Source: a virus (Duplodnaviria; Heunggongvirae; Uroviricota; Caudoviricetes). From it: 64,000 nucleotides of DNA. A program made the position numbers and the translations under genes. The stretch lies in the IMG/VR virus record IMGVR_UViG_3300018475_000004; one strand, 5' to 3'. The notes beneath the pieces are model-generated. The model worked only from the letters and a program-made list of their open reading frames with translations. It did not search any database and was not told where the DNA came from. This document shows, one piece after another, positions 272-23,299 of the stretch. The first letter of the stretch is position 1; every line of letters starts with the position of its first letter.

Positions 272-290
272 AAAAATAAAAGGTATTAGT

Positions 291-524
291 ATGGAAAAAG
301 TACATTTTAGTGATAATAAGCATTTAAAGGGTTATATGTTTGATAGTCTGGTATTCCGTTTTAAGGAATACCAGGCAAAAGCCTTTGAACACGACAAAAT
401 TGAATTGATGAAGTGTAAAGGGTTCTCTGAACCAAAAGCACATGAGGCTGTCATACGTAGGCATGAACGAGATATGATGCGTTTTATTCAGATTTTAGAT
501 GAAGCAATAGGAGAGCATGATTGA
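291..524 (+). CDS. Hypothetical early protein (78 aa)
   Basis: ATG at 291 preceded by AAAAGG; ORF-track ORF 195..524 trimmed to the start that has a ribosome-binding site. Confidence 0.5.
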   Translation: MEKVHFSDNKHLKGYMFDSLVFRFKEYQAKAFEHDKIELMKCKGFSEPKAHEAVIRRHERDMMRFIQILDEAIGEHD

Positions 525-648
525 TAAGTTGCTTGTGCAACTTTGGTTAGGTAAGTTCGTTGTGTAAAACTCCGGACAAAGCTGACGAATTTACTTGTCT
601 TATTTTTGAAATATAATGAAAGAAATATTTCAAAAAAGGAGAAAATAT

Positions 649-1176: not shown

Positions 1177-2365
1177 TTCTTACAAGAAAGCAAGAAGAAG
1201 GTTTGAAAATTGCCGTAGCCAGACACAGAGCACATGAAAAGTACACTGTGATTGCTGGCTACGCCTAAAGGCAGGTACAGGAAAGAGCACTCTGGTAAAA
1301 TTTATCATTGAAGCATTAGATGTAGAACATAATAAAGTTTGCTTTGCTACTTTTACAGGCAAGGCCGCCCAGGTTCTAGCTAAGAAGGGCAATAAGAACG
1401 CAATGACTCTACATCGTCTGCTTTATGATAGCGTGCCTCGTCCAGGCGGTGGATTTACTAGAATCCCAAAGAAATCTTTGGAATATACAGTCGTTGTGGT
1501 TGATGAGGTGTCCATGGCGCCCAAGAGTATTATGGATAAATTATTCTCCCATAATGTATATGTAATTTGTCTTGGCGACCCGTTCCAGTTGCCACCCATT
1601 GAGAAAGACGAGGATAATCATTTGCTTGACCATCCTCATATCTTCCTTGATGAAATTATGAGACAGGCTACTGAATCTGGTATTATCCGTTTGACTATGG
1701 ATATTCGAGACCAGAAGCCTTTGGAATATATAAAGAATGACCAAGTTCAAATTTATCCAGCCAGCGCGCTCAATACCGGAATGCTTGATTGGGCAGACCA
1801 GGTTCTTGTTGCGACTAATCTACAACGGCACAGTATGAATGATTTCATGCGTCAGCAACGAGGTTTTGGACCTGAGCCAGAAGAAGGAGATAAAGTTATT
1901 TGTCTGCGGAATTACTGGGACTGGGGTAATTTGACTAACGGCGACCCATTGGTAAATGGCACTATTGGAACATTACATGATCCCAAGTATAGTCATATCA
2001 ATGTCCCGTTTTACGCTTATGAGAAGGGTAAGATCAATATCCTTACTGGTGTATTTGAATCTGACTTAGGTGAGAATTATGGTCATATCAATATGGACCC
2101 TCGCATTATGAAGGGCGGCGAAAGCGAGCTTGAATGGCGTGATAAGTATAAGCTGAATAAGCTAAAAAATCGTATTGGCGATGTTGTGCCAAAGGAATTT
2201 ACTTATGGATATGCCATTACCTGTCATAAAGCGCAGGGTTCTGAATGGGATAACGTCTTGGTTCTGGAAGAAAAGTTCCCCTTCCAGCCCGTTGATCATG
2301 CTCGTTGGTTATACACTGCGGCCACTCGTGCGGCAGAGAAATTGGTGATTGTCACCAAAGATTGA
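1173..2365 (+). pseudogene. Dda/RecD-like SF1 DNA helicase, interrupted by a frameshift at about 1259-1274
   Basis: GTG start at 1173 overlaps the HNH stop. The N-terminus ...LTRKQEEGLKIAVARHRAHEKYTVIAGYA ends at TAA at 1266. Walker A GTGKSTLVKFIIEAL continues in the -1 frame into ORF 1403..2365 (DEVSM, C-terminal HKAQGSEWDNV). This closely resembles T4 Dda (TLTKFIIEALI, CDEVSM). Confidence 0.75.
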
Positions 2366-2390
2366 CTTACATAAAAAAAATTGATATAAT
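2362..2390 (+). promoter_or_regulatory. SigA-type promoter TTGACT-N17-TGaTATAAT upstream of the polymerase gene (copy 1 of a duplicated cassette)
   Basis: Perfect -35 TTGACT at 2362-2367, 17-nt A-rich spacer, extended -10 TGATATAAT at 2382-2390; identical 30-mer at 9953-9982. Confidence 0.55.
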
Positions 2391-2425
2391 ATAGTATAAT
2401 AAGTAAAAAGAAAGAGGATAATAGA

Positions 2426-5400
2426 ATGACAACTTACTTCAATATTCACAATCATACTATGTATTCTAATATCCGCTTGCTCGATTGTATCAATAGACCA
2501 AAAGACCTCATTGACAAAGCGATTGAGTTGGGTCTTTCTGGCATTGCGATTACTGACCATGAATGTATTAGTGGTCATATGGAAGTAAATCAATATGCGA
2601 AGGAAGTTAAAAAGAACCATCCCGACTTCAAAATCGCTTTAGGCAATGAGGTTTATTTAGTAGATAAACGAGAAAGTGGTATAAAATATTATCACTTTAT
2701 TTTAGTTGCGAAGGATGCCATCGGACATAAGACACTTCGTGAATTGAGTTCTATTGCATGGTATTACGCTTATACTGATAGAGGTATGAAGCGTGTGCCA
2801 ATCACGAAAGAAGAAATGACTAAAATCATTAGCAAATATCGTGGCCATGTAATTGCGACCTCTGCTTGTCTTGGTGGTGAATTATCTACCGCCGCCTGGA
2901 ATATGTCGCAGGCTGAACGAGTAAATGATATGGTAAACGCAAAGGTTTATTATGACCAGATTTGCGATTTTATTGATTATTGTCGAGGCTTGTTTGGTGA
3001 TGATTTTTATATTGAGTGCGCTCCCTCAAGCGCAAGTCAACAATGTGAGGTCAACCGCAAACTAATGAGAATTGCGAAAGCATATGGTATCAATATGGTT
3101 GTTGGTACTGACTCTCATTATTTGACAAAAGAAGATAGATTTGTCCATAAATCTTATTTGAACTCAAAAGATGGTGAACGAGAAGTTGATGACTTCTATG
3201 AGTTCGCATATTTAATGAGTCCAGAAGAGTGTCGAACATTATTGTCAAAGTCATTTAGTGATGTTGATATTGATGATATTTTTGCGGCGACCTTAGAAGC
3301 TCAGAGTAAAATTGAAGATTACTCTTTGGAGCGTAAGCAGATTATTCCTAAAGTTCAAGTTCCATTTTATGATAATCTTTGGGATTTATTGCCAGAAGAT
3401 ATTCAATGGGATTCTTATCAGTGGCCCACTTTAGATCGCATTATTTGTGCGGGTAATGATCAAGAGAGATATTGGTTGGGTGAATGCTTGAAGAGTATGC
3501 ACGAAAAAGGCTTCATTGATAAGAGAGAATATTGGGATAGACTTGAAACGGAGGCAGACGTAATTGACGACATTGGAAGAAAGCTTGAAGATTGTCTCTT
3601 CGCTTATTTCAACACATTCAAACACTATATTGACCTCTTCTGGGAGTGCGGCAGTATCGTTGGTCCAGGACGAGGTTCAGCGACTGGATTCCTCTCTAAC
3701 TATCTCTTGGGTATCACCCAACTTGATCCAGTACGATGGAAGTTACCATATTGGCGCTTTCTTAACAAAGAAAGAGCTGAGTTGCCCGATATTGATATTG
3801 ACCTCGCTCCCTCAAAGCGACCAGAAATCTTTCGAAGAATTCGGAAAGAAAGAGGTGAACTTGGACTTATCCAAGTTGGAACCTTCGGCACAGAAGGAAC
3901 TAAATCAGCCATCCTTACCGCCTGCCGAGGATACCGAAGTGAAGATTTTCCTGATGGAATTGATGTCGACCAAGCCCAATATATGTCATCTCTAATCCCA
4001 CAGGAACGTGGTTTTTTGTGGTCTATTGATGATGTTGTTAATGGTAATGAAAGTAAAGACAGAAAGCCTGTTGTTGCTTTCATTCGAGAAGTAAATCAGT
4101 ATCCTGGTTTGCTAAATATTATCAAGTCCATTGATGGACTTGTAAATAAATGTTCTTCTCACGCATCTGGTGTTATCTTATATGGTGATGATCCATTTGA
4201 TACAGCAGCTTTTATGAGAACTCCTAGTGGTGACTTGATTACCTGTTATGACCTACATAAAGCTGAGGCCGCAGGTGATACTAAGTACGACTTCCTGGTT
4301 ACTGAAATTTCTGATAAGATTATTAAATGTTTTGAACTTTTGGTAGCAGATAAAGTAATTCCAGATTTGAGTTTGCGTGAATTATATAATAAATATATCC
4401 ATCCAGAAGTAATGGATACAACTGACCAGCGCATTTGGGATCACCTTGCGGCCGGTGATGTTCTGGACGTGTTTCAGTTCAGCACAGGTGTCGGTCTAGC
4501 CATTGCGAAAAAGTTGAAGCCTCAAAATCCTATGGAGATGACTGCGGCAAACGCCATGATGAGACTGATGAGCGAAAAAGGCAAAGAGTCTCAGCAGGAC
4601 AGATACGTCCGTATTCAACGGAAAGGTTTGACTGAGTTTCATCGAGAAATGGTTCAAGCAGGACTTGATTCTAATATGATTGCGTTGATGCATAAGCATT
4701 GTGATCAATATTGGGGTTGTTGTGCAATCCAGGAGCAAATGATGGAACTGTTGATGGATGTCGCTGGCTTCACATTAGGTGAAGCAAATACCGCAAGAAA
4801 GATTGTCGGTAAAAAGCAAATGAGTAAGATTCCGCAGTTGCGCGAGGATGTATATAGTAGATTTGACCATGTCAATTCTGCGAATTACTTCTGGGAAAAT
4901 GCGGTTGCCCCTCAGTTAGGATACGCATTTAGCTTGAATCACTCATTACCTTATTCATTCGTTGGTATGCAATCTATTTATCTTGCCATGAATTTCAATC
5001 CCATCTACTGGAATACAGCTTGTCTGATTGTCAATAGTGGTTCTTTGGAAGATAATAGTGAAGAAGAGATTGTTGATATTTATGAGCCAGAAGGACAAGA
5101 CCTAAGCGAAGGCGTGACTTTCCAGGATCTGCCCGATCGGTCTGGTAAGATTCGTAAGACCGCAAGCACTGACTATGGTAAGATTGCTAAGGCAATTGGA
5201 GATATTCGTGCGGCTGGCATCAAGGTGAGTCTGGTTGATATCAATAAATCTCAATTTGGATTTGCTCCCGACGTGGAAAATAATCGTATTCTGTTTGGTT
5301 TGAAAGGTATGCTAAATGTCGGCGATGATGTTATCGCCGCAATCATCGCAAATAGACCATATGCTTCTCCCAAGGATTTCTTACAGAAAGTAAAGCCCGG

Positions 5401-6391
5401 TAAGCAAGCAATGATTTCTCTAATCAAGGGCGGTGCCTTTGATGATATGGAAGATCGTCGTTTCGTAATGGCATGGTATCTGTGGGAGACTTGTGATAAG
5501 AAGAGCCGTTTGACTTTACAGAATATGGGTGGTCTTATCAAGCATGGTTTATTACCTGAATCCACAGAAGAGCAAATTATGGCTCGTAGAGTTTATGAGT
5601 TCAATCGTTATCTAAAAGCAATTACAAAGGCTGATGAATGTGCTTACAAAGATATGTATAGTCTTGATCCACGAGCAATTTCATTCTTACATGAAATTGA
5701 ATGTGAAGACTTGATGGAAAGCGATAATCTCGCTTGGTTTATCAAAGTCAAGACTTGGGATAATGTATATCAGAAGTATATGAACATTTTCAGAAATTGG
5801 ATTGCTACTGATAAGGAAGAAATCCTTGAAGCATTGAATACAAAAATCTTCATGGAAGACTGGGAGAAATATGCCCAGGGCAGTATCTCCGCATGGGAGA
5901 TGGAAGTATTGTGCTTCTATTATCATGAGCACGAATTGGCTCATGTAAATAATGACAAGTATGGCTTTGTTGATTTCTTTGCTTTGCCAGAAGACCCCGT
6001 AATTGAAAAGACTTTTAAAAAGGGTGACAAAGAAATCCATATCTTTCACTTGAATCGTATTTGCGGAACTTGTATCGCGAAGAATAAAACTAAGAGTACA
6101 GTTACTATTTTGACTAACACAGGTGTTGTAAATGTGAAATTTAGAAAAGAATATTTCACATTATTTGATAAGCAGATTTCTGCTCGTCAACCCGATGGAA
6201 CTAAGAAGATCATGGAAAAGTCCTGGTTCAATCGAGGTAATATGATTGTGGTAACTGGTATTCGTTCTGGTGATGATTTCATTTCTAAGAAGTATGCTTC
6301 AACTGGTGGACACCAGTTATATAAAATTGATAAAATTTATCCTAATGGTGATTTGAAACTATTAGATGCTCGTTATCAAGGAGACGAATAA
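2426..6391 (+). CDS. dnaE: DnaE-type (family C) DNA polymerase III alpha subunit with N-terminal PHP domain
   Basis: PHP motifs HNHTMYS / GIAITDHE at the N-terminus; palm motif LPDIDIDL...GTFGT; 1321 aa; ribosome-binding site AAGAAAGAGGA. Confidence 0.85.
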   Translation: MTTYFNIHNHTMYSNIRLLDCINRPKDLIDKAIELGLSGIAITDHECISGHMEVNQYAKEVKKNHPDFKIALGNEVYLVDKRESGIKYYHFILVAKDAIGHKTLRELSSIAWYYAYTDRGMKRVPITKEEMTKIISKYRGHVIATSACLGGELSTAAWNMSQAERVNDMVNAKVYYDQICDFIDYCRGLFGDDFYIECAPSSASQQCEVNRKLMRIAKAYGINMVVGTDSHYLTKEDRFVHKSYLNSKDGEREVDDFYEFAYLMSPEECRTLLSKSFSDVDIDDIFAATLEAQSKIEDYSLERKQIIPKVQVPFYDNLWDLLPEDIQWDSYQWPTLDRIICAGNDQERYWLGECLKSMHEKGFIDKREYWDRLETEADVIDDIGRKLEDCLFAYFNTFKHYIDLFWECGSIVGPGRGSATGFLSNYLLGITQLDPVRWKLPYWRFLNKERAELPDIDIDLAPSKRPEIFRRIRKERGELGLIQVGTFGTEGTKSAILTACRGYRSEDFPDGIDVDQAQYMSSLIPQERGFLWSIDDVVNGNESKDRKPVVAFIREVNQYPGLLNIIKSIDGLVNKCSSHASGVILYGDDPFDTAAFMRTPSGDLITCYDLHKAEAAGDTKYDFLVTEISDKIIKCFELLVADKVIPDLSLRELYNKYIHPEVMDTTDQRIWDHLAAGDVLDVFQFSTGVGLAIAKKLKPQNPMEMTAANAMMRLMSEKGKESQQDRYVRIQRKGLTEFHREMVQAGLDSNMIALMHKHCDQYWGCCAIQEQMMELLMDVAGFTLGEANTARKIVGKKQMSKIPQLREDVYSRFDHVNSANYFWENAVAPQLGYAFSLNHSLPYSFVGMQSIYLAMNFNPIYWNTACLIVNSGSLEDNSEEEIVDIYEPEGQDLSEGVTFQDLPDRSGKIRKTASTDYGKIAKAIGDIRAAGIKVSLVDINKSQFGFAPDVENNRILFGLKGMLNVGDDVIAAIIANRPYASPKDFLQKVKPGKQAMISLIKGGAFDDMEDRRFVMAWYLWETCDKKSRLTLQNMGGLIKHGLLPESTEEQIMARRVYEFNRYLKAITKADECAYKDMYSLDPRAISFLHEIECEDLMESDNLAWFIKVKTWDNVYQKYMNIFRNWIATDKEEILEALNTKIFMEDWEKYAQGSISAWEMEVLCFYYHEHELAHVNNDKYGFVDFFALPEDPVIEKTFKKGDKEIHIFHLNRICGTCIAKNKTKSTVTILTNTGVVNVKFRKEYFTLFDKQISARQPDGTKKIMEKSWFNRGNMIVVTGIRSGDDFISKKYASTGGHQLYKIDKIYPNGDLKLLDARYQGDE

Positions 6392-6586
6392 ATGATCCAA
6401 AAAAGAAAAGTAAAAGCTATGTATGTTGTGCAGATTGTCTGTGAAGAGTGCGGTAAGCCCATGCGTTGCACTCATACACTCTGTACTTATCCTGCACAGC
6501 ACTGCTATGAGTGTTTGAATTGCGGAACGACTACAACAAGCACTACTAAAAATGGCAGTATTGAATATGAGTTCGAGGATGAATAA
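6392..6586 (+). CDS. Small zinc-ribbon protein (64 aa)
   Basis: CEEC...C..C...CYEC..C cysteine pairs; start overlaps the polymerase stop (TAAATG). Confidence 0.5.
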   Translation: MIQKRKVKAMYVVQIVCEECGKPMRCTHTLCTYPAQHCYECLNCGTTTTSTTKNGSIEYEFEDE

Positions 6587-6587
6587 A

Positions 6588-7154
6588 ATGTATAAAATCG
6601 TTGCTTTGTTTGGCGAGGCAGGCTCCGGCAAGGACTTTATGTTGAATAAGGTCCTCGCTATGAGACCTGACTGGCATAAAATTATTAGCTGTACTACTCG
6701 TCCTATGAGACAGGGTGAACAGCATGGTGTGAATTATTTTTATCACACAATGGATGAGTTCAAAGAAAAAATTAACAATGACCAAATGCTTGAATGTGTA
6801 ATGTTCAATAATTGGTATTACGGCACAAGTACCGAGTCTGTGGTTGAAGATAATATCAATGTTGGAGTTTTCAATCCTCAAGGCATCCATGATCTCTTGG
6901 CTCGTGGGGATTGTGAAGTTCTAGCTATTCGTTTGCGGACGCCCGATAAGTTGCGTCTAATGCGTCAGTTGAATCGAGAAGAAGATCCTGACGTCAAGGA
7001 AGTTTGTCGTCGCTTCTTAGCTGACTATTCTGATTTTGGCGAGATTGATTTCCCATTTTTTGAAATTAGAAACGCCACTGAATTGGACGGTTGGACTGGC
7101 CCTGAAGAGATTGTGTACCAGACCGAGACCACATTCGCCCAAGGACGAGATTGA
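6588..7154 (+). CDS. Guanylate kinase-like (deoxy)nucleoside monophosphate kinase
   Basis: P-loop GEAGSGKD plus guanylate-kinase signature TTRPMRQGEQHGVNYFY; ATG at 6588 directly after the upstream TAA. Confidence 0.7.
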   Translation: MYKIVALFGEAGSGKDFMLNKVLAMRPDWHKIISCTTRPMRQGEQHGVNYFYHTMDEFKEKINNDQMLECVMFNNWYYGTSTESVVEDNINVGVFNPQGIHDLLARGDCEVLAIRLRTPDKLRLMRQLNREEDPDVKEVCRRFLADYSDFGEIDFPFFEIRNATELDGWTGPEEIVYQTETTFAQGRD

Positions 7155-7198
7155 TTAAGTGATCAATCCATAAACCCATATTTAGTAGAGAAATTTTG

Positions 7199-7228
7199 CC
7201 CTCTACACAAGATGTAGGGTTTTTAATT
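7199..7228 (+). terminator. Hairpin followed by a T-run after the kinase gene
   Basis: Stem CCCTCTACA/TGTAGGG with a U-run TTTTTAATT. Confidence 0.4.
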
Positions 7229-7241
7229 GGAGGTAATATAT

Positions 7242-9446
7242 ATGTATGTAATTAAACGAGATGGAACAAGAGTTCTATTCAATCCCGATAAGATTGTTCA
7301 AGCTATCAACAAAGCTATGATTAGCACTTACGGCGCAGTCTATGAGACTGAAACTGCCGAAGAGATTGCCGATTTAATTGGTCAGCGCAATGTTGATATG
7401 AGCGTTGAGCAAATCCAAGATTTAGTTGAAGGATACTTGATGAAGAGCGAGTATCCAGAAGTAGCAAAAGAATATATCCTATATCGCGACCAGCGTAGTA
7501 AAGAGCGCACTCGTCGCAGCAAGTTAGTCAAAGCAGTAATGAAGCGCATTGAAGCTACTGCAGTAGAAAATGCTAATGCTAATGTTGACGAAAAGAGCTT
7601 CTCTGGTAGAGAGAAAGAGGCTTCCGCAGATATTCAGAAGATTATTGCCCTCGATTATACTTTGTCTCCAGAAGTCTCAAATGCTCACAAGAATATGTTG
7701 TTATATCAACATGATATGGAAAAGACTAATATCGGCCAGCATAACTGCTTGTTCGTTGATATGAAGAAGCTATTTACCGATGGCTTTATAACCCGTAATG
7801 GTGATGTAAGACCACCTTCTAATTTCAGTAGTGCTTGTCAACAAACTGCTGTTATTGACCAGTGCCAGTCTCAAGTTCAGTTCGGTGGTGTTGGTACTGT
7901 TCACTTGGATTATGACTTGGCTCCTTTCGTAAAGAAGAGTTATAAGAAGAAGCTAATGCAGTATTATACTGACGTCCAAGAGATGAGTGAAGAGGATGCT
8001 GAATTAGTTATTCATGCCAAGTTCCCCGATTTGGATATGGGTAATCCCGCATATGCAGATGATCCTGCACATAAGTTTGCGGTCCGCCAGGTTGAGCGCG
8101 AAGGCACCCAGGCTGCCGAAGCTATGTATCACAACTTGAATACATTAGAGTCTCGCGCAGGTTCTCAGGTTCCTTTCACTTCTATTAATTTTGGTAGAGA
8201 CGAATCTGTTGAAGGTCGTTTCGTATCTCGCAAGATGTTAGAGGCTTCCTTGTCTGGTATTGGTAAGCATCATCTAACTCCTATTTTCCCAATTAGTATT
8301 TTCCAATATAAGCAGGGTTGTAATGCTAATCCCGAAGATCCTAACTATGATTTGAAGCAGTTGGCTATCGAATCTTTAAGTAAGCGCATTTATCCCAACT
8401 TTGTCAATTGTGATTATTCCGAAGCACATGAAGACCCAAATAATATTGACACATATTTCGCAACAATGGGTTGCCGCACAATGTTGGGTTATGACAGACA
8501 CAGCAAATCTTATAATCGCGTCGGACGTGGTAACCTTGTTCCTAATACTATGATTTTGCCAAAGCTCGGTATCGAATATGGTATCTGCCTTGGTGAGCGT
8601 GAGACCCCAGACTTAGACGGCTTCTGGTCTGCGTTTGAGGATTTATTGATGCTATGTGAACAAGGTTTATTAGAGCGCTTTGATATTATGGTTAATCAGC
8701 CACCTGAGGCCGCTCCATTTATGTATCAAAATGGTACTATGAAGGATGCTCAGAAGTGCAAAATGTCTAACTATGAAGCATTGAAGCACGGCACTTTAGC
8801 TATGGGTTATATCGGTATTGCTGAAATGTGCCAGGCTCTGTTTGGTAAGAATCACGCAGAAGACTCCGAAGTTCATGCTTTCGCTTTGAAGGTTGTCAAG
8901 AGAATCAATGAATACGCTAAGGAAGCTTCCGAGCGTCACGATTTGAATTTCTCTTGTTATGCTACTCCTGCGGAAGGTCTATGCCATACCGCGCTGAAGG
9001 GCTTACGTAAGCAATATGGAATCATTCCTAATGTTACTGATAAGGAGTTCTTGACTAACAGTCACCATGTTCCTGTTTGGCAGGAAGTTGGTATCTTTGA
9101 GAAGTTAGCTATTGAAGCTCCTTTCTGTAAGTATCCTACTGGTGGTTGTATCACTTATGTAGAATTGGATTCTACTTTCGTAAAGAATACTAAGGCTATC
9201 GAGCAGATTATTGATTATGCTTTCAAAGAGCTAGATATCCCTTATTTAGCTTTCAACTTCCCAATCGACTCTTGCTTAGATTGTGGTTATCAAGGCGAGT
9301 TCAATGATGCTTGTCCCGAGTGCGGAAGCCAGAATATTCAACAGCTTCGTCGTGTAACTGGTTATTTGACTACTGACTATCGCCATTTCAACAACGGAAA
9401 ACAAGCAGAGGTTGAACACCGCGTCAAGCATTCTCAATTTTCCTAA
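7242..9446 (+). CDS. nrdD: Anaerobic ribonucleoside-triphosphate reductase (class III)
   Basis: ATP-cone N-terminus VIKRDGTRVLFNPDKIVQAINKA; C-terminal glycyl-radical region RRVTGYL and a CxxC zinc ribbon; ribosome-binding site GGAGG 8 nt upstream of the ATG at 7242. Confidence 0.9.
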   Translation: MYVIKRDGTRVLFNPDKIVQAINKAMISTYGAVYETETAEEIADLIGQRNVDMSVEQIQDLVEGYLMKSEYPEVAKEYILYRDQRSKERTRRSKLVKAVMKRIEATAVENANANVDEKSFSGREKEASADIQKIIALDYTLSPEVSNAHKNMLLYQHDMEKTNIGQHNCLFVDMKKLFTDGFITRNGDVRPPSNFSSACQQTAVIDQCQSQVQFGGVGTVHLDYDLAPFVKKSYKKKLMQYYTDVQEMSEEDAELVIHAKFPDLDMGNPAYADDPAHKFAVRQVEREGTQAAEAMYHNLNTLESRAGSQVPFTSINFGRDESVEGRFVSRKMLEASLSGIGKHHLTPIFPISIFQYKQGCNANPEDPNYDLKQLAIESLSKRIYPNFVNCDYSEAHEDPNNIDTYFATMGCRTMLGYDRHSKSYNRVGRGNLVPNTMILPKLGIEYGICLGERETPDLDGFWSAFEDLLMLCEQGLLERFDIMVNQPPEAAPFMYQNGTMKDAQKCKMSNYEALKHGTLAMGYIGIAEMCQALFGKNHAEDSEVHAFALKVVKRINEYAKEASERHDLNFSCYATPAEGLCHTALKGLRKQYGIIPNVTDKEFLTNSHHVPVWQEVGIFEKLAIEAPFCKYPTGGCITYVELDSTFVKNTKAIEQIIDYAFKELDIPYLAFNFPIDSCLDCGYQGEFNDACPECGSQNIQQLRRVTGYLTTDYRHFNNGKQAEVEHRVKHSQFS

Positions 9447-9493
9447 CTGTTGCTAACTACAACTTAGCTACGCTATAAGAAAGAGAGATAACT

Positions 9494-9976
9494 ATGAGAT
9501 ACAGTGGATTGATACTAAATGATATCACCGCTGCTCCAGGTTTATGTGTAAGCTTTTTTACACAAGGCTGTCCTCATCATTGTCCTGGGTGTCATAATCC
9601 TGGCACCTGGGCCTTTGATGGAGGTAAGGAGTTTACAAATAATACTTTACATAAGATTTTAGAAGGACTAACCGCACAAGGAATCAAGCGTAATTTATGT
9701 ATTATGGGCGGTGAACCTTTGTGTGAAGCAAATGCTTTTCTGGTAAATTTGATTCTCCAAGAGGTAAGACATAAGCTTCCAGAAGTGAAGATATATATTT
9801 GGAGCGGCTACACTTATGAAGAATTATTGCGGTCTGGCGACCCTCATGTCAAATCATGTCTGGAATTAGCGGACGTCCTAATCGACGGTCCATATATTGA
9901 AGCAGAGCGAGATTTGACTCTAGAAATGAGAGGCTCTCGCAACCAGCGTATAATTGACTTACATAAAAAAAATTGA
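9494..9976 (+). CDS. nrdG: Anaerobic RNR activating enzyme (radical SAM)
   Basis: CPHHCPGCHNP radical-SAM cysteine motif; 160 aa immediately downstream of nrdD. Confidence 0.85.
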   Translation: MRYSGLILNDITAAPGLCVSFFTQGCPHHCPGCHNPGTWAFDGGKEFTNNTLHKILEGLTAQGIKRNLCIMGGEPLCEANAFLVNLILQEVRHKLPEVKIYIWSGYTYEELLRSGDPHVKSCLELADVLIDGPYIEAERDLTLEMRGSRNQRIIDLHKKN

Positions 9977-9982
9977 TATAAT
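9953..9982 (+). promoter_or_regulatory. SigA-type promoter TTGACT-N17-TGaTATAAT (copy 2, identical 30-mer) upstream of the 10013 ORF
   Basis: ATTGACTTACATAAAAAAAATTGATATAAT is identical to 2361-2390; the -35 lies inside the last nrdG codons. Confidence 0.55.
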
Positions 9983-10012
9983 TTAGTATAAAGAGTAAAA
10001 GGAGGTCTTGAT

Positions 10013-10510
10013 ATGGGAAGTAAACTCACTGTCAAGAAAATGGACCTTTCACAAGTCAATTTTGAACCAATGGAAGGAGAAGTAATTCAAGATTCCATTT
10101 CAGGTGAAATTCGCGTATATCATGACGGTCATTGGGTTACAATGAGAACTGATGGCGCAGGCTTGAATTTAGGTCTATATGATTTGAATAAACAAATTAT
10201 CGCCCAGCTTCCTGAGTTGGCTGATTTAAATAAGGCAATCCAAACCATTGAAGCATTACATGAAATGTATCGTAATAAATACTATATGCTTTACGGTAAA
10301 GAGATTTCTTATTTTACTGTATTCAAACTAATTGAGCCTCAGTATTTCGCACAAGAGGTTCTTGATTGTCTGCGAAATGTGGGAAAAATTAAAGCCATTG
10401 ACCCCGACGAACCTGGCACTGCCGTGGAGATTTGGGTGGAAACAGATGACGGCCCAACCTGTCTATATCTGTTCCCTTATGATAGTGGCTTAGTTCAGGT
10501 AGGTGAATGA
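10013..10510 (+). CDS. Hypothetical protein (165 aa)
   Basis: ORF with ribosome-binding site AAAAGGAGG upstream; follows its own promoter. Confidence 0.6.
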   Translation: MGSKLTVKKMDLSQVNFEPMEGEVIQDSISGEIRVYHDGHWVTMRTDGAGLNLGLYDLNKQIIAQLPELADLNKAIQTIEALHEMYRNKYYMLYGKEISYFTVFKLIEPQYFAQEVLDCLRNVGKIKAIDPDEPGTAVEIWVETDDGPTCLYLFPYDSGLVQVGE

Positions 10511-10511
10511 A

Positions 10512-10781
10512 ATGAAAAGAATTTATTGTGAATTACATATGTTCGATTTGCACCAGAGAGTCTATATCGTTGATACAGATACTGGAGATAAAGAGTGCGT
10601 AGCAATTACCACCATGGAAGGACTTCCAGAGGTAATCAGTACAATCAGTAATGAAAAGAAAATTGATCATGTATATTTGAGTGGCAATAGTGTTTTCGGT
10701 AATGCTGTTTCCGAAGATATTCTTGCTTACTCAAAAATGAATTATAGTCGAAATAATATTGTTGTAGAGGTAATAAGATGA
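10512..10781 (+). CDS. Hypothetical protein (about 89 aa)
   Basis: ATG at 10512 after AGGTGA; overlaps the upstream stop. Confidence 0.5.
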   Translation: MKRIYCELHMFDLHQRVYIVDTDTGDKECVAITTMEGLPEVISTISNEKKIDHVYLSGNSVFGNAVSEDILAYSKMNYSRNNIVVEVIR

Positions 10782-11020
10782 AATATTTATTAAAAGCTGT
10801 TGATACTTATAGAGTTCCCACCATTGCCGATGTTGAGGCTCTTCATGAACAATTACTAGATGATCCCACTTTTGACCTAACTGCTTTTAGTTATAAGACT
10901 AAGCAAATTAAGGCTAAGGGTGAAGTTATTGAAGAATATCAAGTAGTTACTGCTACTAAGATTTTCACTAATGAGAAAGACCCCGAGGATGTTTATACCG
11001 TCACTTATGAAAGGGGTTAA
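10778..11020 (+). CDS. Hypothetical protein (80 aa)
   Basis: ATGA start/stop overlap with the upstream ORF. Confidence 0.5.
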   Translation: MKYLLKAVDTYRVPTIADVEALHEQLLDDPTFDLTAFSYKTKQIKAKGEVIEEYQVVTATKIFTNEKDPEDVYTVTYERG

Positions 11021-11025
11021 TCATC

Positions 11026-11565
11026 ATGGCACATTTTGAAAAAGTTTCTAAGTATGCGGACGCGGACTTAGCTATGCCGGTCCGTAAAACCAGTCAATCC
11101 GCAGGATATGACATGGTCGCCGCAGAGGATTATGTAATTCCTTCTCTTCCTTTGATGTGTGAAGAAGCAAAATTATTATGGCCTGTTGAGGTCGATGAAT
11201 ATGTAAGTCTGGAACAAATGGCTGACTTTACTAAGAAGATTGGTTTCAAGCCAACTCTTGTTTCTACTGGAATGAAGTGTAAGTTAGATCCTGGCTCTTG
11301 GTTACAACTAAGTGTCCGCAGTTCCTCTCCCTTGAAATATTGGTTGATGTTGGGTAACGGCATTGGTATTATCGATGCTGATTACTACAATAACCCCGAT
11401 AATGAAGGTGAGATTTTCTTCCAGATTTACAATCTATCTCCATTTAATATTCAAATTAAGAAAGGTGACGCAATCGGTCAGGCAACCATTCTTCCATATG
11501 GTATCACTTCTGATGATGTGGTAATGGGCGAACGCACTGGCGGATTCGGTTCTACTTCTAAGTGA
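11026..11565 (+). CDS. dut: dUTP diphosphatase
   Basis: Motifs AGYDM, SVRSS, GIIDADY and C-terminal RTGGFGSTSK. Confidence 0.85.
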   Translation: MAHFEKVSKYADADLAMPVRKTSQSAGYDMVAAEDYVIPSLPLMCEEAKLLWPVEVDEYVSLEQMADFTKKIGFKPTLVSTGMKCKLDPGSWLQLSVRSSSPLKYWLMLGNGIGIIDADYYNNPDNEGEIFFQIYNLSPFNIQIKKGDAIGQATILPYGITSDDVVMGERTGGFGSTSK

Positions 11566-12047
11566 GAACTCTTGCATTGGACCAGGCCAGTCGCGTGACT
11601 GGTTGGGCAGTATTTGATGATGGTGAACTTTACAATTATGGCAAGTTCTCCGCAACTCAAACCGATGTTGGAGATAGACTTCACTTTATTCGCAAGGAAG
11701 TTATTGGTTTAATTGAGAAGTTTGATATTGACGAAGTCGTCTTTGAAGATATTCAACTTCAAAATAATGTTGTCAATAATGTAGCCACCTTTAAAGCATT
11801 GGCTGAGGTATTTGGCGTTTTACATGAATTATTTGTTGAAATGAAAATGCCTCGAACCGCCGTTCTTTCTACCGTCTGGAAATCTTCTCTTGGTATCAAG
11901 GGAAAAGATCGTCCAGCCTAGAAGAAAGCCGCACAAGATTGGGTTGTAAAAACCTATAATGTAAAACCAACACAGGATGAATGTGATGCTATTTGTATTG
12001 GCGCTCATTATACCAAAAATAAGGTCGAAGTATTCGATTGGTCCTAA
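11562..12047 (+). CDS. RuvC-like Holliday junction resolvase containing one in-frame TAG (11919-11921) read as a sense codon
   Basis: N-terminus LALDQASRVTGWAVF (catalytic Asp). The conserved C-terminus QDECDAICIGAHY lies downstream of the TAG in the same frame. The true stop is TAA at 12045. Confidence 0.75.
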
Positions 12048-12111
12048 CTAATAAATCCCCCTATCCAACTTCTTATAAATGTCAGAGAAGTTAGAAAGGG
12101 GGATACTTTAA

Positions 12112-12570
12112 ATGGAATTATTAGCTGAGTGGGGTATGGAGATTTTGTTTGCTCTTATCAGTGCCGGTGTAATTGGTTATGCTAAGTTCAAAACTCGTGA
12201 ATTGAATCGTGAATTAAGAAACGCTAGAGAATTAGCCGCCGCCCAAGAGAGACAACATGTCGAGGACACCATTGAGATCCATTTAGAACCAGTATATCAG
12301 GAATTAGAGGAACTAAGAAAATATATCAGAGAAACTGAGAACATCGAGAAGACTCATATGAATCTGATTATTGCTTCTTATCGTTTCCGCTTAGTACAAT
12401 TATGCAAAGGATTCTTAGCTCAGGGATATATTACTCCTGCACAGATGGAACAGTTAACCGAGTTCTATAAATTATATACTGGTTTGGGTGGCAACGGTCA
12501 AGCTAAAATCTATTATGATAAGGCTATGGCTTTAGACTTAAAAGTTGATAATGACGACGTTGTTGATTAA
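12112..12570 (+). CDS. Hypothetical membrane-anchored coiled-coil protein (152 aa)
   Basis: N-terminal hydrophobic segment ILFALISAGVIGY; last gene of the plus-strand module. Confidence 0.6.
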   Translation: MELLAEWGMEILFALISAGVIGYAKFKTRELNRELRNARELAAAQERQHVEDTIEIHLEPVYQELEELRKYIRETENIEKTHMNLIIASYRFRLVQLCKGFLAQGYITPAQMEQLTEFYKLYTGLGGNGQAKIYYDKAMALDLKVDNDDVVD

Positions 12571-12586
12571 ACCAAAAAAAAATAAG

Positions 12587-12630
12587 GGGTCGATTATGAT
12601 TATTCATAATCGACCCTTATTTCATTTTTA
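12587..12630. terminator. Bidirectional rho-independent terminator at the junction of the convergent modules
   Basis: 13-bp perfect stem GGGTCGATTATGA/TCATAATCGACCC flanked by an A-run upstream and a T-run downstream. Confidence 0.7.
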
Positions 12631-12928
12631 TACCATTATAAATCGCGTTTGTCCGTTCTAATATATCTTCTCCATATTCAGTCATAAGCTCTGCTACCAT
12701 TTCCTCTTCATCATATGATAAATCCACAGCATAGCTAAACATAAAAGCATGAACTAATTCATGACATAAGACTTCTTTTAGTTGTTGAGGGGAAAGAGTC
12801 TTGTCTATACATATAGTCTATGTGACTTTATCACAAACTCCAAGAGCGTGAGTTCTCCAAGGCGTAAGTAGCATTGGATGGGCTGGCGAGACCAACCGGA
12901 CCCGCCAGCGCACGCCATTTATAATCAT
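12617..12928 (-). CDS. Small recoded ORF (about 85-103 aa, 1 in-frame TAG) with an HExxH motif
   Basis: Reading through TAG at 12818-20 gives ...QQLKEVLCHELVHAFMFSYAVDL.... ATGA overlap with the upstream gene. Not in the ORF track because the TAG splits it. Confidence 0.35.
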
Positions 12929-13506
12929 TTCATTTGACCAATTTTAGAAGCCAATGCGGTTATCTTCTTTTCAAGATATGCTTTTTCTTCTGGAGAAGCA
13001 TCCGCAATCATTTCGGTAATATCCAGAGATAGCTCTTGCATATACTTTTCTAACTCACGCAATTGAGTAGCTTTATCTCGTTTCATATCCTTGGCTTCCA
13101 TATACATTCTACGACTATTATAACTGCGGCCTTCGCGCTCATCGCGCCACATACCTGGGTCATCGTAATAATTTCTTCCATTAGAACTATTCATTCCAGA
13201 AGAAGAAGAATTATCATTGTCAGCATAGAATGTACCATCACTTCTACGATTTCTGTCATAATACATGCGGCTGTCACCATTTTCCTACTGGTGATGGCCG
13301 CCTTTTTTCATTTCAAACTCCATTTCGTGTGAAGAGTTGTTCATAGCTTCTGTAACGGTGCAATAGTAGATTGCCTCTTCTAAATCTTTAATCATATCAA
13401 TAGCTTCTCCAAGCTCTTTAGTATCTACTTCACCCAAATCACATAATTGTACTTCAACAGCACACATTAAAGTTTCTTTCATGTGTTTTAATCTTTCGTG
13501 GTCCAT
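12925..13506 (-). CDS. Hypothetical late protein (193 aa, 1 in-frame TAG at 13285)
   Basis: ORFs 13285..13506 and 12925..13266 share a frame and are joined by TAG (...GGHHQ-Q-ENGDSRMYYDR...); ribosome-binding site AAGGAGGG; true stop TGA. Confidence 0.6.
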
Positions 13507-13517
13507 ACTATCCCTCC

Positions 13518-13940
13518 TTACGCAGAACGTTCAGCAATTAGATTTGCATTTTGTACATCAATTGGCTGAGTAGAAATATTCTTCACGGCCACATGAGAGC
13601 AGCATCCTTTTGGAATATCAATAAAGATAGATGCGCTCACATTGAAGAAATCTCCAACTGCGGCAGGGGTGACAGTCATAATTGTAGCTGGAACCGCTTC
13701 ACCATCCAAAGAGATAGCTAAGGAAATTGGTCCGACGGTGCCACCTTCTGCAATCGCGACATTTGCGCCGAAATGTACTCTAAAACGGGCGCGGCACTGA
13801 GTATTGGTGACTCCGCGAAGAGTCACCAATCCACTACCATCACGATGCTCGATAGAATAATTTCCAGAAGTAACAGAATCAGTGAAATAAACATTCTGAT
13901 TTGCGGGAACTGTTTGAACAGCATTAGCAATAATTTCCAT
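13518..13940 (-). CDS. Hypothetical protein (140 aa)
   Basis: Intact ORF; ribosome-binding site AAGGAGGAAAG; TAA stop. Confidence 0.6.
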   Translation of the reverse strand: MEIIANAVQTVPANQNVYFTDSVTSGNYSIEHRDGSGLVTLRGVTNTQCRARFRVHFGANVAIAEGGTVGPISLAISLDGEAVPATIMTVTPAAVGDFFNVSASIFIDIPKGCCSHVAVKNISTQPIDVQNANLIAERSA

Positions 13941-13959
13941 ATACTTTCCTCCTTAGATA

Positions 13960-14676
13960 TTAGTTGCAGCCACATCCAGCATAGTAGTTCATACCACAAC
14001 CATAGCTAGCATATGGATTAGCTACCATGTATGCAGGAATAGGAGCCTTAGTTCCTAACTGGTCGATCAAGAAAGCGTTCTGAGCTTGCTGAGAAGCGGT
14101 CAAGCGCAAAGCCTGATTTTCAGCCTGCAAAGTAGCAATCTTATCCTGAGTCAAGAAGTCTAAGATAGAGCGAACACCATTATTATTGTTTTCAATAATA
14201 TCTCTCGCGGCATTGGCAATATTAGTATTAGTTGCGTTAGATTGAGTCAAGATATTATAGTTGACTTCGCACAAACCTCTCTCAATCAAGCGCTGAGTTT
14301 CGCAGCAACAAGCAGCTTGCTCTGCGGACATATCACACAAACGGCCCATAATGGCGTTAGTGTTCTGCATATTACCCATAGTAACATTACCAAAACCAGT
14401 TAGCAAAGAAGTGTTCATGTCATAGAAACCATCGCATAGACCATGCTCTAGTCCACGGATTCCATTTTCTAGATTGTTGATATCAAAGCCATAAGAAACA
14501 GCGTCGCGAGCGTTACCTGCGCCAAGGCCGCCGCCATAGCCACCATTACCCCATCCCGCAAACAGGAATAACAGTAACAGCCACCATGCGCCGTCGCCAT
14601 CTCCACCGAAACCAGTACCACTTCCACGGGTTACAGCAGCGATATCAGATAAATTATAACCTTTTCCATTGAACAT
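13960..14676 (-). CDS. Gly/Cys-rich membrane protein (238 aa)
   Basis: GFGGDGDG-AWWLLLLFLFAGW-GNGGYGGG transmembrane segment flanked by Gly runs; Cys-rich C-terminus; ribosome-binding site AGGAGG. Confidence 0.6.
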   Translation of the reverse strand: MFNGKGYNLSDIAAVTRGSGTGFGGDGDGAWWLLLLFLFAGWGNGGYGGGLGAGNARDAVSYGFDINNLENGIRGLEHGLCDGFYDMNTSLLTGFGNVTMGNMQNTNAIMGRLCDMSAEQAACCCETQRLIERGLCEVNYNILTQSNATNTNIANAARDIIENNNNGVRSILDFLTQDKIATLQAENQALRLTASQQAQNAFLIDQLGTKAPIPAYMVANPYASYGCGMNYYAGCGCN

Positions 14677-14962: not shown

Positions 14963-15397
14963 TTAGAATGACATTAATTCTACTTTTTCTTTTGCGGGGG
15001 CAGATACGGCCGGCTCGGTTGGCTTCTGGAGCATTTGTAGTTGCGCCAGGACCTGCTCAAACTCTTCTCTCGTTACAAATTTCTCAACGGATGGAACAGA
15101 ACCGCTCTCTTCTCTCTAAACGGGCATTTCCCTTAATTCATACACACACAGTGATGCGGTGCCATCCATATTTATTTGTTTTGTGTAGATTCGTCTGTTC
15201 GCTAAATCTGGGAAGTAGAATACAGAACCATCAAAGTCAATAGAGGTTGCACGGGCCTCTTCCAATGATGCTACCAAGCGTCCTTTCAGTCCTGCTTGCG
15301 GCGGCGCCTGTCGTAAGTAAGACAATGGTTGGTACACTGGTTGCTATTGGGCGACTTGCTAGGGTTGTTGTGGATAATAATTATAGTTTGAGTACAT
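14963..15397 (-). CDS. Hypothetical protein with Q/P/Y-rich N-terminus (144 aa, 3 in-frame TAGs)
   Basis: ATG at 15397 with ribosome-binding site GGAGAGGAGA. TAGs at 15359 and 15344 fall inside YPQQP-Q-QVAQ-Q-QPVYQP. TAG at 15116 joins to the TAA at 14963. Confidence 0.6.
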
Positions 15398-15439
15398 ATG
15401 TAAGGTCTCCTCTCCATACAAAAAATATTTTATCCAATC

Positions 15440-15600
15440 CCCTCATAGCTTTATGAAAATTAGGACCGAAAAATTACCCTAATTTGTCCAAACGAGGACC
15501 GAACCCTAACCGAAAATGGACCGCGACTGGAATGAAAAATAACCAAAAATGGACCGTAAGAATACCGGGACATAACTTTTTGAGGTCCTGCGAATGACAA
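15440..15600. repeat. Array of 4-5 GGACCG direct repeats (AAAAT-GGACCG units) in the intergenic region
   Basis: GGACCG at about 15465, 15495, 15517 and 15551, plus degenerate GGTCCTG at 15584; spacing 22-34 nt; between a terminator and the next gene start. Confidence 0.5.
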
Positions 15601-20544: not shown

Positions 20545-21192
20545 TTATGAAACAAATTCAATCCAAAAAATATCTTGCTGATTTAATTTTCTGATTTCGT
20601 CAGTAAAATGTTCATACATACTACTAGCAATATCATAATCACCAGCTAGATCTCCGGCGTCTTCAAGGCCGTTTGGCTGAACGTTTAGTCCATATAGGAC
20701 TTTGCCAACATTTGGCATGGTGCTGATATTATAGAGGATTTTCTTTCCATCAGCATCAACACGATAAAAACGAATGGCATATTCTACTTCTGCTTCGTCT
20801 TGAGTTACTCGTCCATCAATACACCATGGAATAACCATCTTATCCTTTTCCAAAGTGCCAGGAGTAGCTTTATGAGTATAAATGTCGTAATATGGAACGG
20901 CATATAAACCAGTCACACCTTGCTTCTGGGGGTCTGCGGGATAAGTCTTATAAGAAATAACACAGGTGGTGGTAGACAAGTCCATATAATCCCAATATCT
21001 ATCCATGATAAAGTATAAATTTTCGGATTTATGGTCACGAGCAGTGCTTAGGATATCACGTTCTCCAATTGAGCGAGTACGCCAATCAACTTCAATGTAA
21101 TCCTCCGCATATGGAATGGAAGCCATCTTTGGAGGATTACTTCTTTGGATTTCATATAATTTGTCAATAGCAGTTTGACTTAACTGTGACAT
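20545..21192 (-). CDS. Hypothetical structural protein (215 aa)
   Basis: Intact ORF; ribosome-binding site AAAGGAGGTCAATAATT. Confidence 0.6.
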   Translation of the reverse strand: MSQLSQTAIDKLYEIQRSNPPKMASIPYAEDYIEVDWRTRSIGERDILSTARDHKSENLYFIMDRYWDYMDLSTTTCVISYKTYPADPQKQGVTGLYAVPYYDIYTHKATPGTLEKDKMVIPWCIDGRVTQDEAEVEYAIRFYRVDADGKKILYNISTMPNVGKVLYGLNVQPNGLEDAGDLAGDYDIASSMYEHFTDEIRKLNQQDIFWIEFVS

Positions 21193-21210
21193 AATTATTG
21201 ACCTCCTTTA

Positions 21211-23282: not shown

Positions 23283-23299
23283 TGAAAAATCAAATAACC

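What the first reader, a model, noticed from the sequence alone, without database searches (positions are those of the whole stretch)
11562..12047. RuvC-like resolvase needs TAG read-through to include its catalytic C-terminus; it marks the boundary of TAG usage
All plus-strand replication genes from 291 to 11565 are TAG-free. The last enzyme gene is different. After ...KGKDRPA it has TAG at 11919, and the same frame continues for 42 more codons, encoding QDECDAICIGAHY. This matches the conserved C-terminal acidic/His catalytic segment of RuvC-family resolvases, and the frame ends at TAA at 12045. Truncation at the TAG would remove that segment. So the recoding already applies to a gene of the plus-strand module, which is consistent with a timing or gating role.
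Basis: partly seen in the sequence, partly recalled or inferred. Interest (0 to 1): 0.6.

Follow-up and report, generated by a model that had tools for sequence, protein, structure and literature searches.

The report
Amber-coded Holliday junction resolvase gene
This is an intact RuvC-type DNA junction-cutting enzyme gene in a large gut phage that reads the TAG stop codon as glutamine, so it is one ordinary example of a known recoding, although this gene is recoded unusually often across the phage's relatives.

Summary
GTG 11562 to TAA 12047 is one 161-codon frame with a single in-frame TAG at 11919-11921 (codon 120).

The read-through product is a complete RuvC-family resolvase. The AlphaFold model has pLDDT 90 and TM 0.81 to E. 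coli RuvC. Two of its four catalytic acids, D139 and D142, lie after the TAG.

TAG here means glutamine:
- Codon 120 is CAA or CAG in 59 of 79 related loci and TAG in 14.
- In-frame TAGs across the family fall on invariant-Gln columns.
- Codons 121-161 are under strong purifying selection (pN/pS 0.05-0.16).
- The window holds 97 in-frame TAGs, and none of its 43 called genes ends in TAG.

The phage is an SPbeta-like, roughly 183-kb gut phage using code 15, a known phenomenon.

The "boundary" reading fails:
- The next plus-strand gene is TAG-free.
- A RecJ-like gene 1.7 kb left of the window also carries a TAG.
- The minus strand is a mosaic of TAG-rich and TAG-free genes.

The "gating" idea is plausible but unproven. 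RuvC is the most TAG-rich gene family near it in relatives (31% of Gln-type codons, against 2-6% for polymerase, NrdD and dUTPase). It is also translationally coupled to dUTPase.

No suppressor tRNA was found in the 81 kb of this genome that I could see. Close relatives carry tRNA(CUA) pairs.

The parts
11562..12047 (+). RuvC-family Holliday junction resolvase gene, 161 codons when TAG is read as Gln
   Evidence: PHROG 159/827 at E about 1e-19 over residues 1-153. Profile hit to E. coli RuvC 1HJR over 3-153. AF2 pLDDT 90, Foldseek TM 0.81 to 1HJR.
11562..11565 (+). GTGA overlap: the RuvC GTG start (11562-11564) overlaps the dUTPase TGA stop (11563-11565), which implies translational coupling
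   Evidence: ATGA, TAATG or GTGA overlaps are conserved in most relatives.
11919..11921 (+). In-frame TAG, codon 120, read as glutamine
   Evidence: Homolog codon 120 is CAA in 41, CAG in 18, TAG in 14 and GAA in 6 loci. It is CAG in L081 and TAG in L082-L084. No local RNA structure (z = 0.49).
11580..11582 (+). Codon D7, first catalytic acid, before the TAG
   Evidence: Aligned to E. coli RuvC D7.
11745..11747 (+). Codon E62, second catalytic acid, before the TAG
   Evidence: Aligned to E. coli RuvC E66. Invariant in alignment A1.
11976..11987 (+). Codons D139-E-C-D142, third and fourth catalytic acids, after the TAG
   Evidence: Aligned to E. coli RuvC D138 and D141. They lie in predicted helix 138-153.
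11026..11565 (+). Upstream dUTPase gene, TAG-free, to which RuvC is coupled
   Evidence: Pfam PF00692 at E = 9e-11. 0 TAG.
12055..12104 (+). Conserved stable hairpin between RuvC and the next gene; its 3' arm holds that gene's Shine-Dalgarno sequence
   Evidence: dG -26.6 kcal/mol, z = -4.2. Retained in relatives although both arms differ in sequence.
12112..12570 (+). Last plus-strand gene, function unknown (PHROG 4105/4257); TAG-free here and TAG-rich in relatives
12585..12618 (.). Bidirectional terminator-like hairpin that closes the plus-strand module against the convergent minus-strand module

Best explanation
Window 11562-12047 is one intact gene for a RuvC-family Holliday junction resolvase. 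It belongs to an SPbeta-like gut phage of about 183 kb that uses genetic code 15, in which TAG means glutamine. Codon 120 is an ordinary Gln codon written as TAG, one C-to-T change away from the CAG found in a close relative. A ribosome that stops there makes a 119-residue fragment lacking D139 and D142, so by inference that fragment is inactive. Active enzyme is made only when amber suppression is available, most likely from phage tRNA(CUA) genes outside the window. The gene starts on the stop codon of the TAG-free dUTPase gene, and no terminator lies between the two. The TAG is therefore the only feature seen here that sets its expression apart from the early replication genes. Shown: the full-length reading, the Gln meaning, and the RuvC fold and catalytic motif. 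Inferred: the source of suppression, and that resolvase output is delayed or reduced until suppression builds up.
For: Anatomy. Fold and catalytic tetrad. Meaning of TAG: codon 120 is CAA/CAG in 59 of 79 loci and TAG in 14. CAG and TAG alternate among relatives at 88-93% amino-acid identity. In 57 unique RuvC genes, in-frame TAGs concentrate on invariant-Gln columns 8, 65, 67, 120, 125 and 138. Purifying selection after the TAG: pN/pS 0.05-0.16 for codons 121-161, as low as before the TAG. Variants L090 and L092 differ at 18-19 nucleotides, 2-3 of them after the TAG, with no amino-acid change and the TAG retained. Genome-wide recoding: 97 in-frame TAGs in 18 of 43 called genes, and none of the 43 ends in TAG. 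Of 792 in-frame stops inside HSPs to relatives, 743 are TAG. No read-through-stimulating structure at the TAG. Suppressor tRNAs: tRNA(CUA) pairs sit on the contigs of the closest IMG/VR relatives (L239 with L111; L189 with L003/L112) and on four more TAG-recoded relatives. The described relative phAss-1 has three. Published precedent: PMC10607447, 10.1101/2021.08.26.457843, and proteomic proof of TAG read as Gln in PMC9523058. Gene-specific enrichment: RuvC TAG share is 0.31 against 0.02-0.06 for polymerase, NrdD and dUTPase in 26 de-duplicated recoded relatives. RuvC exceeds the pooled replication genes in 21 of 23 (sign test p = 7e-5). Coupling with dUTPase is conserved.
Against: No tRNA was found in the window, in 8.2 kb to its right or in 8.6 kb to its left of the same genome, and the window has no Rfam hit. 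The suppressor for this phage is therefore inferred, not seen. This gene has only one TAG among 7 Gln codons, and the site is polymorphic (CAG or TAG) among close relatives, so a regulatory role for this particular codon is not required. The single sequence scores 20.7 bits on Pfam RuvC, just under the 22.2 cut-off. There are no expression, proteomic or activity data.
Confidence: 0.9

Rival explanations
1. The TAG is a neutral synonymous variant. Once the phage suppresses amber codons, CAG-to-TAG changes drift in any gene that is not needed before suppression starts. The codon has no timing or dosage function of its own, and RuvC is simply tolerant of it.
For: There is only 1 TAG among 7 Gln codons here. 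CAG in L081 and TAG in L082-L084 occur at 88-93% amino-acid identity. The TAG count in RuvC varies from 0 to 9 among relatives with no fixed position. TAG-bearing genes are depleted in CAG, as a CAG-to-TAG mutational flow would produce.
Against: The RuvC TAG share (0.31) exceeds that of adjacent late genes (pooled 0.14; RuvC higher in 19 of 25 relatives, p = 0.015; pooled Fisher p = 3e-9, not corrected for relatedness). Several relatives have 2-6 TAGs in RuvC but 0 among 65-93 Gln codons in neighbouring replication genes.
Confidence: 0.5
2. The TAG codons act as a translational timer or attenuator. They hold back junction-cutting and DNA-end-processing nucleases (RuvC-like and RecJ-like) that are co-transcribed with early replication genes. 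Active enzyme then appears, or stays scarce, only as tRNA(CUA) accumulates, in step with packaging.
For: In the 20-gene replication module of the same genome, only RecJ-like and RuvC-like carry a TAG. In relatives the TAG share is 0.08 for RecJ and 0.31 for RuvC, against 0-0.013 for YorF, AAA_24, YorH, DnaB, helicase, polymerase and NrdD. The RuvC start overlaps the dUTPase stop across the clade. Borges et al. propose the same logic for lysis genes and for an intron homing endonuclease inside an early gene (10.1101/2021.08.26.457843). From my own knowledge, phage resolvases such as T4 endonuclease VII act late, debranching DNA before packaging.
Against: A guanylate-kinase-like gene, which is not a nuclease, is also TAG-rich in relatives (0.14-0.22). 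In the relatives' loci, tblastn matches to a different nuclease-like gene of the window, the HNH endonuclease gene at 616-1176, were absent, so the nuclease theme rests on two gene families. The phAss-1 RuvC-like gene has no TAG. There are no timing data, and related sequences are not independent.
Confidence: 0.3
3. The TAG is a true stop. The gene is a truncated pseudogene or a split gene, and the downstream 41 codons are untranslated or translated separately.
For: Code-11 gene callers report a 119-aa product, or a 66-68-aa ORF starting at ATG 11841.
Against: Purifying selection after the TAG equals that before it. The catalytic D139 and D142 lie downstream. Gln occupies that column in 59 of 79 relatives. 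The window has 96 other in-frame TAGs in long conserved genes. No homolog naturally ends there.
Confidence: 0.02
4. This is site-specific programmed read-through, driven by context or RNA structure as in some RNA viruses, rather than genome-wide codon reassignment. Alternatively, an amino acid other than Gln is inserted.
For: ARAGORN labels CUA-anticodon tRNAs as 'Pyl' by default.
Against: There is no stable structure around the TAG (z = 0.49). TAGs occur at 30 different alignment columns of the RuvC family and in 18 window genes. The columns most often occupied by TAG are otherwise Gln only. The relatives' tRNA(CUA) has G73, G2:C71, G3:C70 and a mismatched 1:72 pair (read), which from my own knowledge are Gln-type features.
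Confidence: 0.03

Closest known systems
Code-15 (TAG read as Gln) recoded gut phages: the phAss-1 / 'Phassvirus' group and its wider clade (Babkin et al. 2023, PMC10607447), and recoded phage lineages in general (Borges et al., 10.1101/2021.08.26.457843; Peters et al., PMC9523058)
   Same: In-frame TAGs fall at conserved Gln positions. They occur mostly in virion genes plus a few DNA-processing genes. Core replication genes stay in standard code. Relatives carry tRNA-Sup(CUA) genes within tRNA arrays. The gene content is shared: DnaE-type polymerase, NrdD/NrdG, dUTPase and a RuvC-like gene in the same order.
   Different: This phage is only distantly related to phAss-1 (RuvC 29%, polymerase 38% amino-acid identity) and is larger, at about 183 kb. 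The phAss-1 RuvC-like gene has no TAG. Neither paper mentions a resolvase. No suppressor tRNA has yet been seen in this genome.
Bacterial and phage RuvC resolvases (E. coli RuvC 1HJR; Lactococcus phage bIL67 RuvC 4KTW)
   Same: Same fold over the whole length (TM 0.81 and 0.72). Same size, about 160 aa. The acidic tetrad is in equivalent positions.
   Different: Sequence identity is only 19-22%. The Pfam score is just under the gathering cut-off. One codon of the gene is an amber codon.
SPbeta-like siphoviruses and Enterococcus phages EF1 / VRE9
   Same: Shared genes include YorF, YorH, a YorL-type DnaE polymerase, YonB, YonD, YomU tail tube, YomV and YomW. The best annotated RuvC matches are 'Holliday junction resolvase' genes of Enterococcus phages at 38% identity.
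   Different: [quoted passage not shown] In the Enterococcus phage matches shown, tblastn reports single uninterrupted pieces.

Membership tests
RuvC-family Holliday junction resolvase | RNase H-like fold with RuvC topology over the full length of about 160 residues | tested here: met
   The AF2 model has pLDDT 90 and pTM 0.86. The top 14 Foldseek PDB hits are all RuvC; 1HJR has TM 0.81 over 157 columns.
RuvC-family Holliday junction resolvase | Four catalytic acidic residues (E. coli D7, E66, D138, D141) | tested here: met
   The profile alignment places window D7, E62, D139 and D142 on them. E62 is invariant and D7 nearly invariant in A1. D139 and D142 are identical in every full-length sequence displayed in A1, but they are not among its listed invariant or near-invariant columns because the alignment includes truncated sequences.
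RuvC-family Holliday junction resolvase | Score above the curated Pfam PF02075 cut-off | tested here: not met
   20.7 bits against a cut-off of 22.2. Many close homologs carry precomputed PF02075 hits, and PHROG 159/827 match at E about 1e-19. This is a near miss of a sequence threshold and does not contradict membership.
RuvC-family Holliday junction resolvase | Dimeric, structure-specific cleavage of four-way junctions | not testable with these tools
   Needs purified protein.
Code-15 (TAG = Gln) phage | In-frame TAGs in conserved genes, aligned with Gln in relatives | tested here: met
Code-15 (TAG = Gln) phage | TAG not used as a terminator | tested here: met
   All 43 genes called in the window end in TAA or TGA before any terminal TAG. 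The call is partly by construction, because TAG was treated as sense. However, no gene needed a TAG to end at its homologs' length.
Code-15 (TAG = Gln) phage | Suppressor tRNA with CUA anticodon in the genome | tested here: inconclusive
   None in the window or in the 17 kb of flanks of the same genome. About 102 kb of the 183-kb genome could not be fetched. The tRNA is present on contigs of the closest relatives.
Code-15 (TAG = Gln) phage | Peptide evidence for Gln at TAG | not testable with these tools
   Shown for other phages in PMC9523058.
Context-dependent programmed stop-codon read-through | A single special site with a stimulatory downstream structure or context, while TAG is otherwise a stop | tested here: not met
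   No structure at the site. The window has 97 in-frame TAGs.

The most novel reading that the evidence does not exclude
In this clade of SPbeta-like code-15 gut phages, amber codons are selectively concentrated in DNA-processing nucleases. The RuvC-like resolvase is the most affected, with a RecJ-like exonuclease as well. Both genes sit inside an otherwise standard-code early replication operon, and the RuvC-like gene is translationally coupled to its upstream neighbour. The code switch would then act as a gene-specific timer or attenuator for junction cleavage, extending the proposed 'recoding gates lysis' idea to recombination and packaging-preparation enzymes.
Probability: 0.3. Interest if true: 0.55.

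Novelty: new member of a known kind. Interest (0 to 1): 0.3.

Why it matters
In practice, code-11 annotation cuts this resolvase to a dead 119-aa fragment or to a 66-68-aa orphan ORF, as seen in public gene calls. Such genomes need table 15. Biologically, the gene is a clean natural case for testing whether amber recoding regulates a specific enzyme. It is co-transcribed and start/stop-coupled with a TAG-free early gene, so any delay or reduction in its synthesis must come from the codon itself. If confirmed, recoding would control DNA-processing steps as well as lysis and virion genes.

Tried and rejected
1. First guess, a crAss-like phage: rejected. The polymerase is DnaE-type and closest to SPbeta, Enterococcus EF1/VRE9 and phAss-1, and the structural genes carry SPbeta Yom/Yon Pfam domains.
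2. Megablast of 10000-14000 against INPHARED found no match.
3. Taking 'Q' at position 120 in database proteins as evidence: rejected. Some database proteins were themselves translated with code 15 (P0010 has TAG at codons 75 and 120). I therefore re-did the test on DNA.
4. The hunt for this phage's own suppressor tRNA failed in several ways.
   - ARAGORN found nothing in the window, in 51 RuvC loci, in 25 RecJ loci or in the flanks L087 and L101.
   - Rfam found nothing in the window.
   - Exact look-ups of left-edge proteins failed.
   - The left-edge DNA and protein were not in IMG/VR.
   - A 32-nt exact search with the relatives' tRNA(CUA) in metagenome contigs returned only two small contigs that could not be linked to this phage.
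5. Host or prophage search in GTDB genomes gave only two MAG contigs of about 148 kb (Eubacterium sp., Oscillospiraceae). These look like whole phage genomes binned with a MAG, so the host hint is weak.
6. The plus-strand ORF 14968-15456 with one TAG was judged spurious. The relative L083 has a called minus-strand gene at the syntenic position, matching window ORF 14963-15442.
7. A read-through-stimulating RNA structure at the TAG: none found.

Full report
**1. Observation**

The frame opens at GTG 11562, and the product runs MRTLALDQAS...KGKDRPA. TAG sits at 11919-11921 (codon 120). Then come 41 sense codons, KKAAQDWVVKTYNVKPTQDECDAICIGAHYTKNKVEVFDWS, and TAA at 12045-12047. The GTG overlaps the TGA stop of the upstream gene (GTGA at 11562-11565). 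That gene is a dUTPase (Pfam PF00692, E = 9e-11).

The TAG is real. The exact 119-aa truncated product is on record on 8 contigs, and the six places shown come from six different samples. The exact 161-aa code-15 product is on 31 contigs, the longest 208 kb.

**2. What the gene is**

With the TAG read through, the protein matches PHROG 159 and 827 ("RuvC-like / Holliday junction resolvase") at E about 1e-19 over residues 1-153. Pfam RuvC scores 20.7 bits, just under its 22.2 cut-off.

A profile of 44 homologs hits E. coli RuvC (1HJR) over residues 3-153. It places window D7, E62, D139 and D142 on the catalytic D7, E66, D138 and D141.

An AlphaFold2 model (pLDDT 90, pTM 0.86) has helices at 122-132 and 138-153 after the TAG. 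Its best PDB matches are all RuvC proteins. 1HJR gives TM 0.81 over 157 columns, and Lactococcus phage bIL67 RuvC is also among them.

A stop at codon 120 would therefore remove two of the four catalytic acids and two core helices.

**3. TAG means glutamine here**

Database proteins show Q at position 120. Some of them were themselves translated with code 15, so I repeated the test on DNA:

- In 79 related IMG/VR loci, codon 120 is CAA in 41, CAG in 18, TAG in 14 and GAA in 6.
- A relative at 93% amino-acid identity has CAG (L081). Others at 88-92% have TAG (L082-L084).
- Of 57 unique RuvC genes in the family, 31 carry 1-9 in-frame TAGs. These concentrate on columns that are otherwise only Gln: positions 8, 65, 67, 120, 125 and 138.
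- Codons 121-161 evolve under the same strong purifying selection as codons 1-119. pN/pS is 0.05-0.16, including comparisons between genomes that both carry the TAG.
- Two variants differ from the window at 18-19 nucleotides, 2-3 of them after the TAG. They show no amino-acid change and keep the TAG.
- No RNA structure surrounds the TAG (z = 0.49).

In the window as a whole, 18 of 43 called genes contain 97 in-frame TAGs, and none of the 43 ends in TAG. This is codon reassignment across the genome, not read-through at one special site.

**4. Which phage**

The window is 99.99% identical to parts of ENA contig ERZ27248436 k141_1895590 (183,267 bp), to a JGI contig and to a further ENA contig. 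The coordinates wrap around the end of that contig, so the genome is about 183 kb and circularly permuted.

It encodes the following:

- a DnaE-type polymerase, 38% identical to SPbeta YorL
- YorF, YorH and DnaB-like proteins
- NrdD and NrdG
- SPbeta-type virion proteins (YonB, YonD, YomU tail tube, YomV, YomW)

The nearest described recoded phage is phAss-1. [quoted passage not shown] Stop-codon recoding that spares replication genes and marks late genes is already described (10.1101/2021.08.26.457843). TAG read as Gln has been proven by proteomics in other phages (PMC9523058).

**5. Source of suppression**

No tRNA lies in the window, in 8.2 kb to its right or in 8.6 kb to its left of the same genome. 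The window also has no Rfam match. About 102 kb of the genome could not be fetched.

A pattern built from the phAss-1 suppressor tRNAs found tRNA(CUA) genes on the contigs of relatives, inside tRNA arrays:

- a tandem pair on the contig of L111 (RecJ 80% identical)
- a tandem pair on the contig of L003/L112 (RuvC 78% identical)
- single copies on four further contigs whose RuvC genes hold 4-7 TAGs
- one copy on a contig whose RuvC has no TAG (L229, the contig of L060)

In the relative with L111, the array lies about 60 kb upstream of the RecJ-like gene. That would fall in the unseen part of this genome. A phage-encoded suppressor is therefore inferred for this phage, not shown.

**6. The "boundary" idea**

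Inside the window the statement about the plus strand holds. The ten called genes from 204 to 11565 have 0 TAG in 126 Gln codons, against 15.5% on the minus strand (p = 7e-9). But TAG usage does not switch at RuvC:

- The next plus-strand gene (12112-12570) is TAG-free.
- A RecJ-like exonuclease gene 1.7 kb left of the window, in the same module of the same genome, has an in-frame TAG at codon 55. It aligns with Gln in relatives, and those relatives carry 6-8 in-frame stops in that gene.
- The minus strand is a mosaic. A 14.6-kb block (20545-35160) has 147 Gln codons and no TAG. The holin, the tail tube and several other genes are also TAG-free.

TAG use is a property of individual genes, not of position.

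**7. The "gating" idea**

Two results speak for it.

First, I compared 26 recoded relatives, de-duplicated at about 90% RuvC identity. RuvC has the highest TAG share of Gln-type codons among the gene families that are well represented in these loci:

| Gene | TAG share of Gln-type codons |
|---|---|
| RuvC | 0.31 (21 of 26 relatives have at least one TAG) |
| polymerase | 0.018 |
| NrdD | 0.039 |
| dUTPase | 0.062 |
| adjacent late genes, pooled | 0.14 |

RuvC exceeds the pooled replication genes in 21 of 23 relatives (sign test p = 7e-5). It exceeds the adjacent late genes in 19 of 25 (p = 0.015). Several relatives have 2-6 TAGs in RuvC but none in 65-93 Gln codons of the neighbouring replication genes.

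In the loci fetched around RecJ, RecJ-like (0.08) and a guanylate-kinase-like gene (0.22) are also TAG-permissive. YorF, AAA_24, YorH, DnaB, helicase and polymerase stay at 0-0.008.

Second, the RuvC start overlaps the dUTPase stop (ATGA, TAATG or GTGA) across most of the clade, and no terminator separates the two genes. A TAG is therefore the only gene-specific feature I could see that could set RuvC synthesis apart from the early genes.

Against it:

- This phage has one TAG in seven Gln codons.
- That codon toggles between CAG and TAG among close relatives.
- The phAss-1 RuvC-like gene has none.
- A gene that is not a nuclease shares the pattern.
- The counts are not phylogenetically independent.

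I rate an adaptive timer or attenuator role at about 0.3. Simple tolerance, meaning the gene is not needed before suppression is available, rates about 0.5.

**8. Verdict**

The read-through claim is confirmed with high confidence, and the inserted residue is glutamine. The boundary claim is wrong. Gating remains an open and testable idea.

The case is a new member of a known kind: code-15 recoding in a gut phage lineage whose wider group has been described. One modest new point is that the resolvase is the most consistently amber-recoded gene of its neighbourhood.

Noticed in passing
window 12055-12104 (+): A stable hairpin (dG -26.6 kcal/mol, z = -4.2) lies between the RuvC stop and the next gene. 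Its 3' arm AAAGGGGGA is the likely Shine-Dalgarno sequence of gene 12112-12570, and no T-run follows it. Relatives at 74-85% nucleotide identity retain it although both arms differ in sequence, which suggests translational control of the downstream gene.
   Followed up: partly
L101 6719-8512 (same genome, 1.7 kb left of window position 1): A RecJ-like (YorK-like, DHH/RecJ_OB) exonuclease gene has an in-frame TAG at codon 55. It aligns with Gln in relatives, which have 6-8 in-frame stops in this gene. Code-11 callers split it into 54-aa and 413/538-aa products.
   Followed up: yes
window 20545-35160 (-): A contiguous block of 7 genes, including a 2156-aa ORF at 23512-29982 and tail-fibre-like proteins, has 147 Gln codons and no TAG, with a higher CAG share than the TAG-bearing late genes. 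It sits among TAG-rich late genes and is poorly conserved in relatives. It may be a recently acquired host-range cassette from a standard-code source, or it may hold genes needed before suppression.
   Followed up: partly
window 61206-62258 (-) and 59194-59733 (-): The tail tube gene (Pfam YomU_Tube) and its neighbour are TAG-free and use CAG almost exclusively for Gln (9 of 10 and 4 of 4 codons). Flanking genes are TAG-rich and CAG-poor, so highly expressed late genes may avoid TAG.
   Followed up: no
window, all called genes: TGA stops cluster in the plus-strand early module (7 of 12 genes), against 2 of 31 minus-strand genes, which otherwise end in TAA.
   Followed up: no
L239 1154-1303; L189 4043-4192: The closest IMG/VR relatives carry tandem pairs of tRNA(CUA) genes inside tRNA arrays. 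One member has G73, G2:C71, G3:C70 and a mismatched 1:72 pair, which are Gln-like features. The array lies about 60 kb from the RecJ-like gene on the same contig.
   Followed up: partly
window 616-1176 (+): An HNH endonuclease gene sits immediately upstream of a Dda-like helicase gene (1403-2365). The helicase matches only the C-terminal part of its PHROG profile. I did not check for a possible mobile-element insertion.
   Followed up: no
window 6552-7154 (+): A guanylate-kinase-like gene is TAG-free here but among the most TAG-rich replication-module genes in relatives (share 0.14-0.22). This does not fit a nucleases-only explanation.
   Followed up: partly
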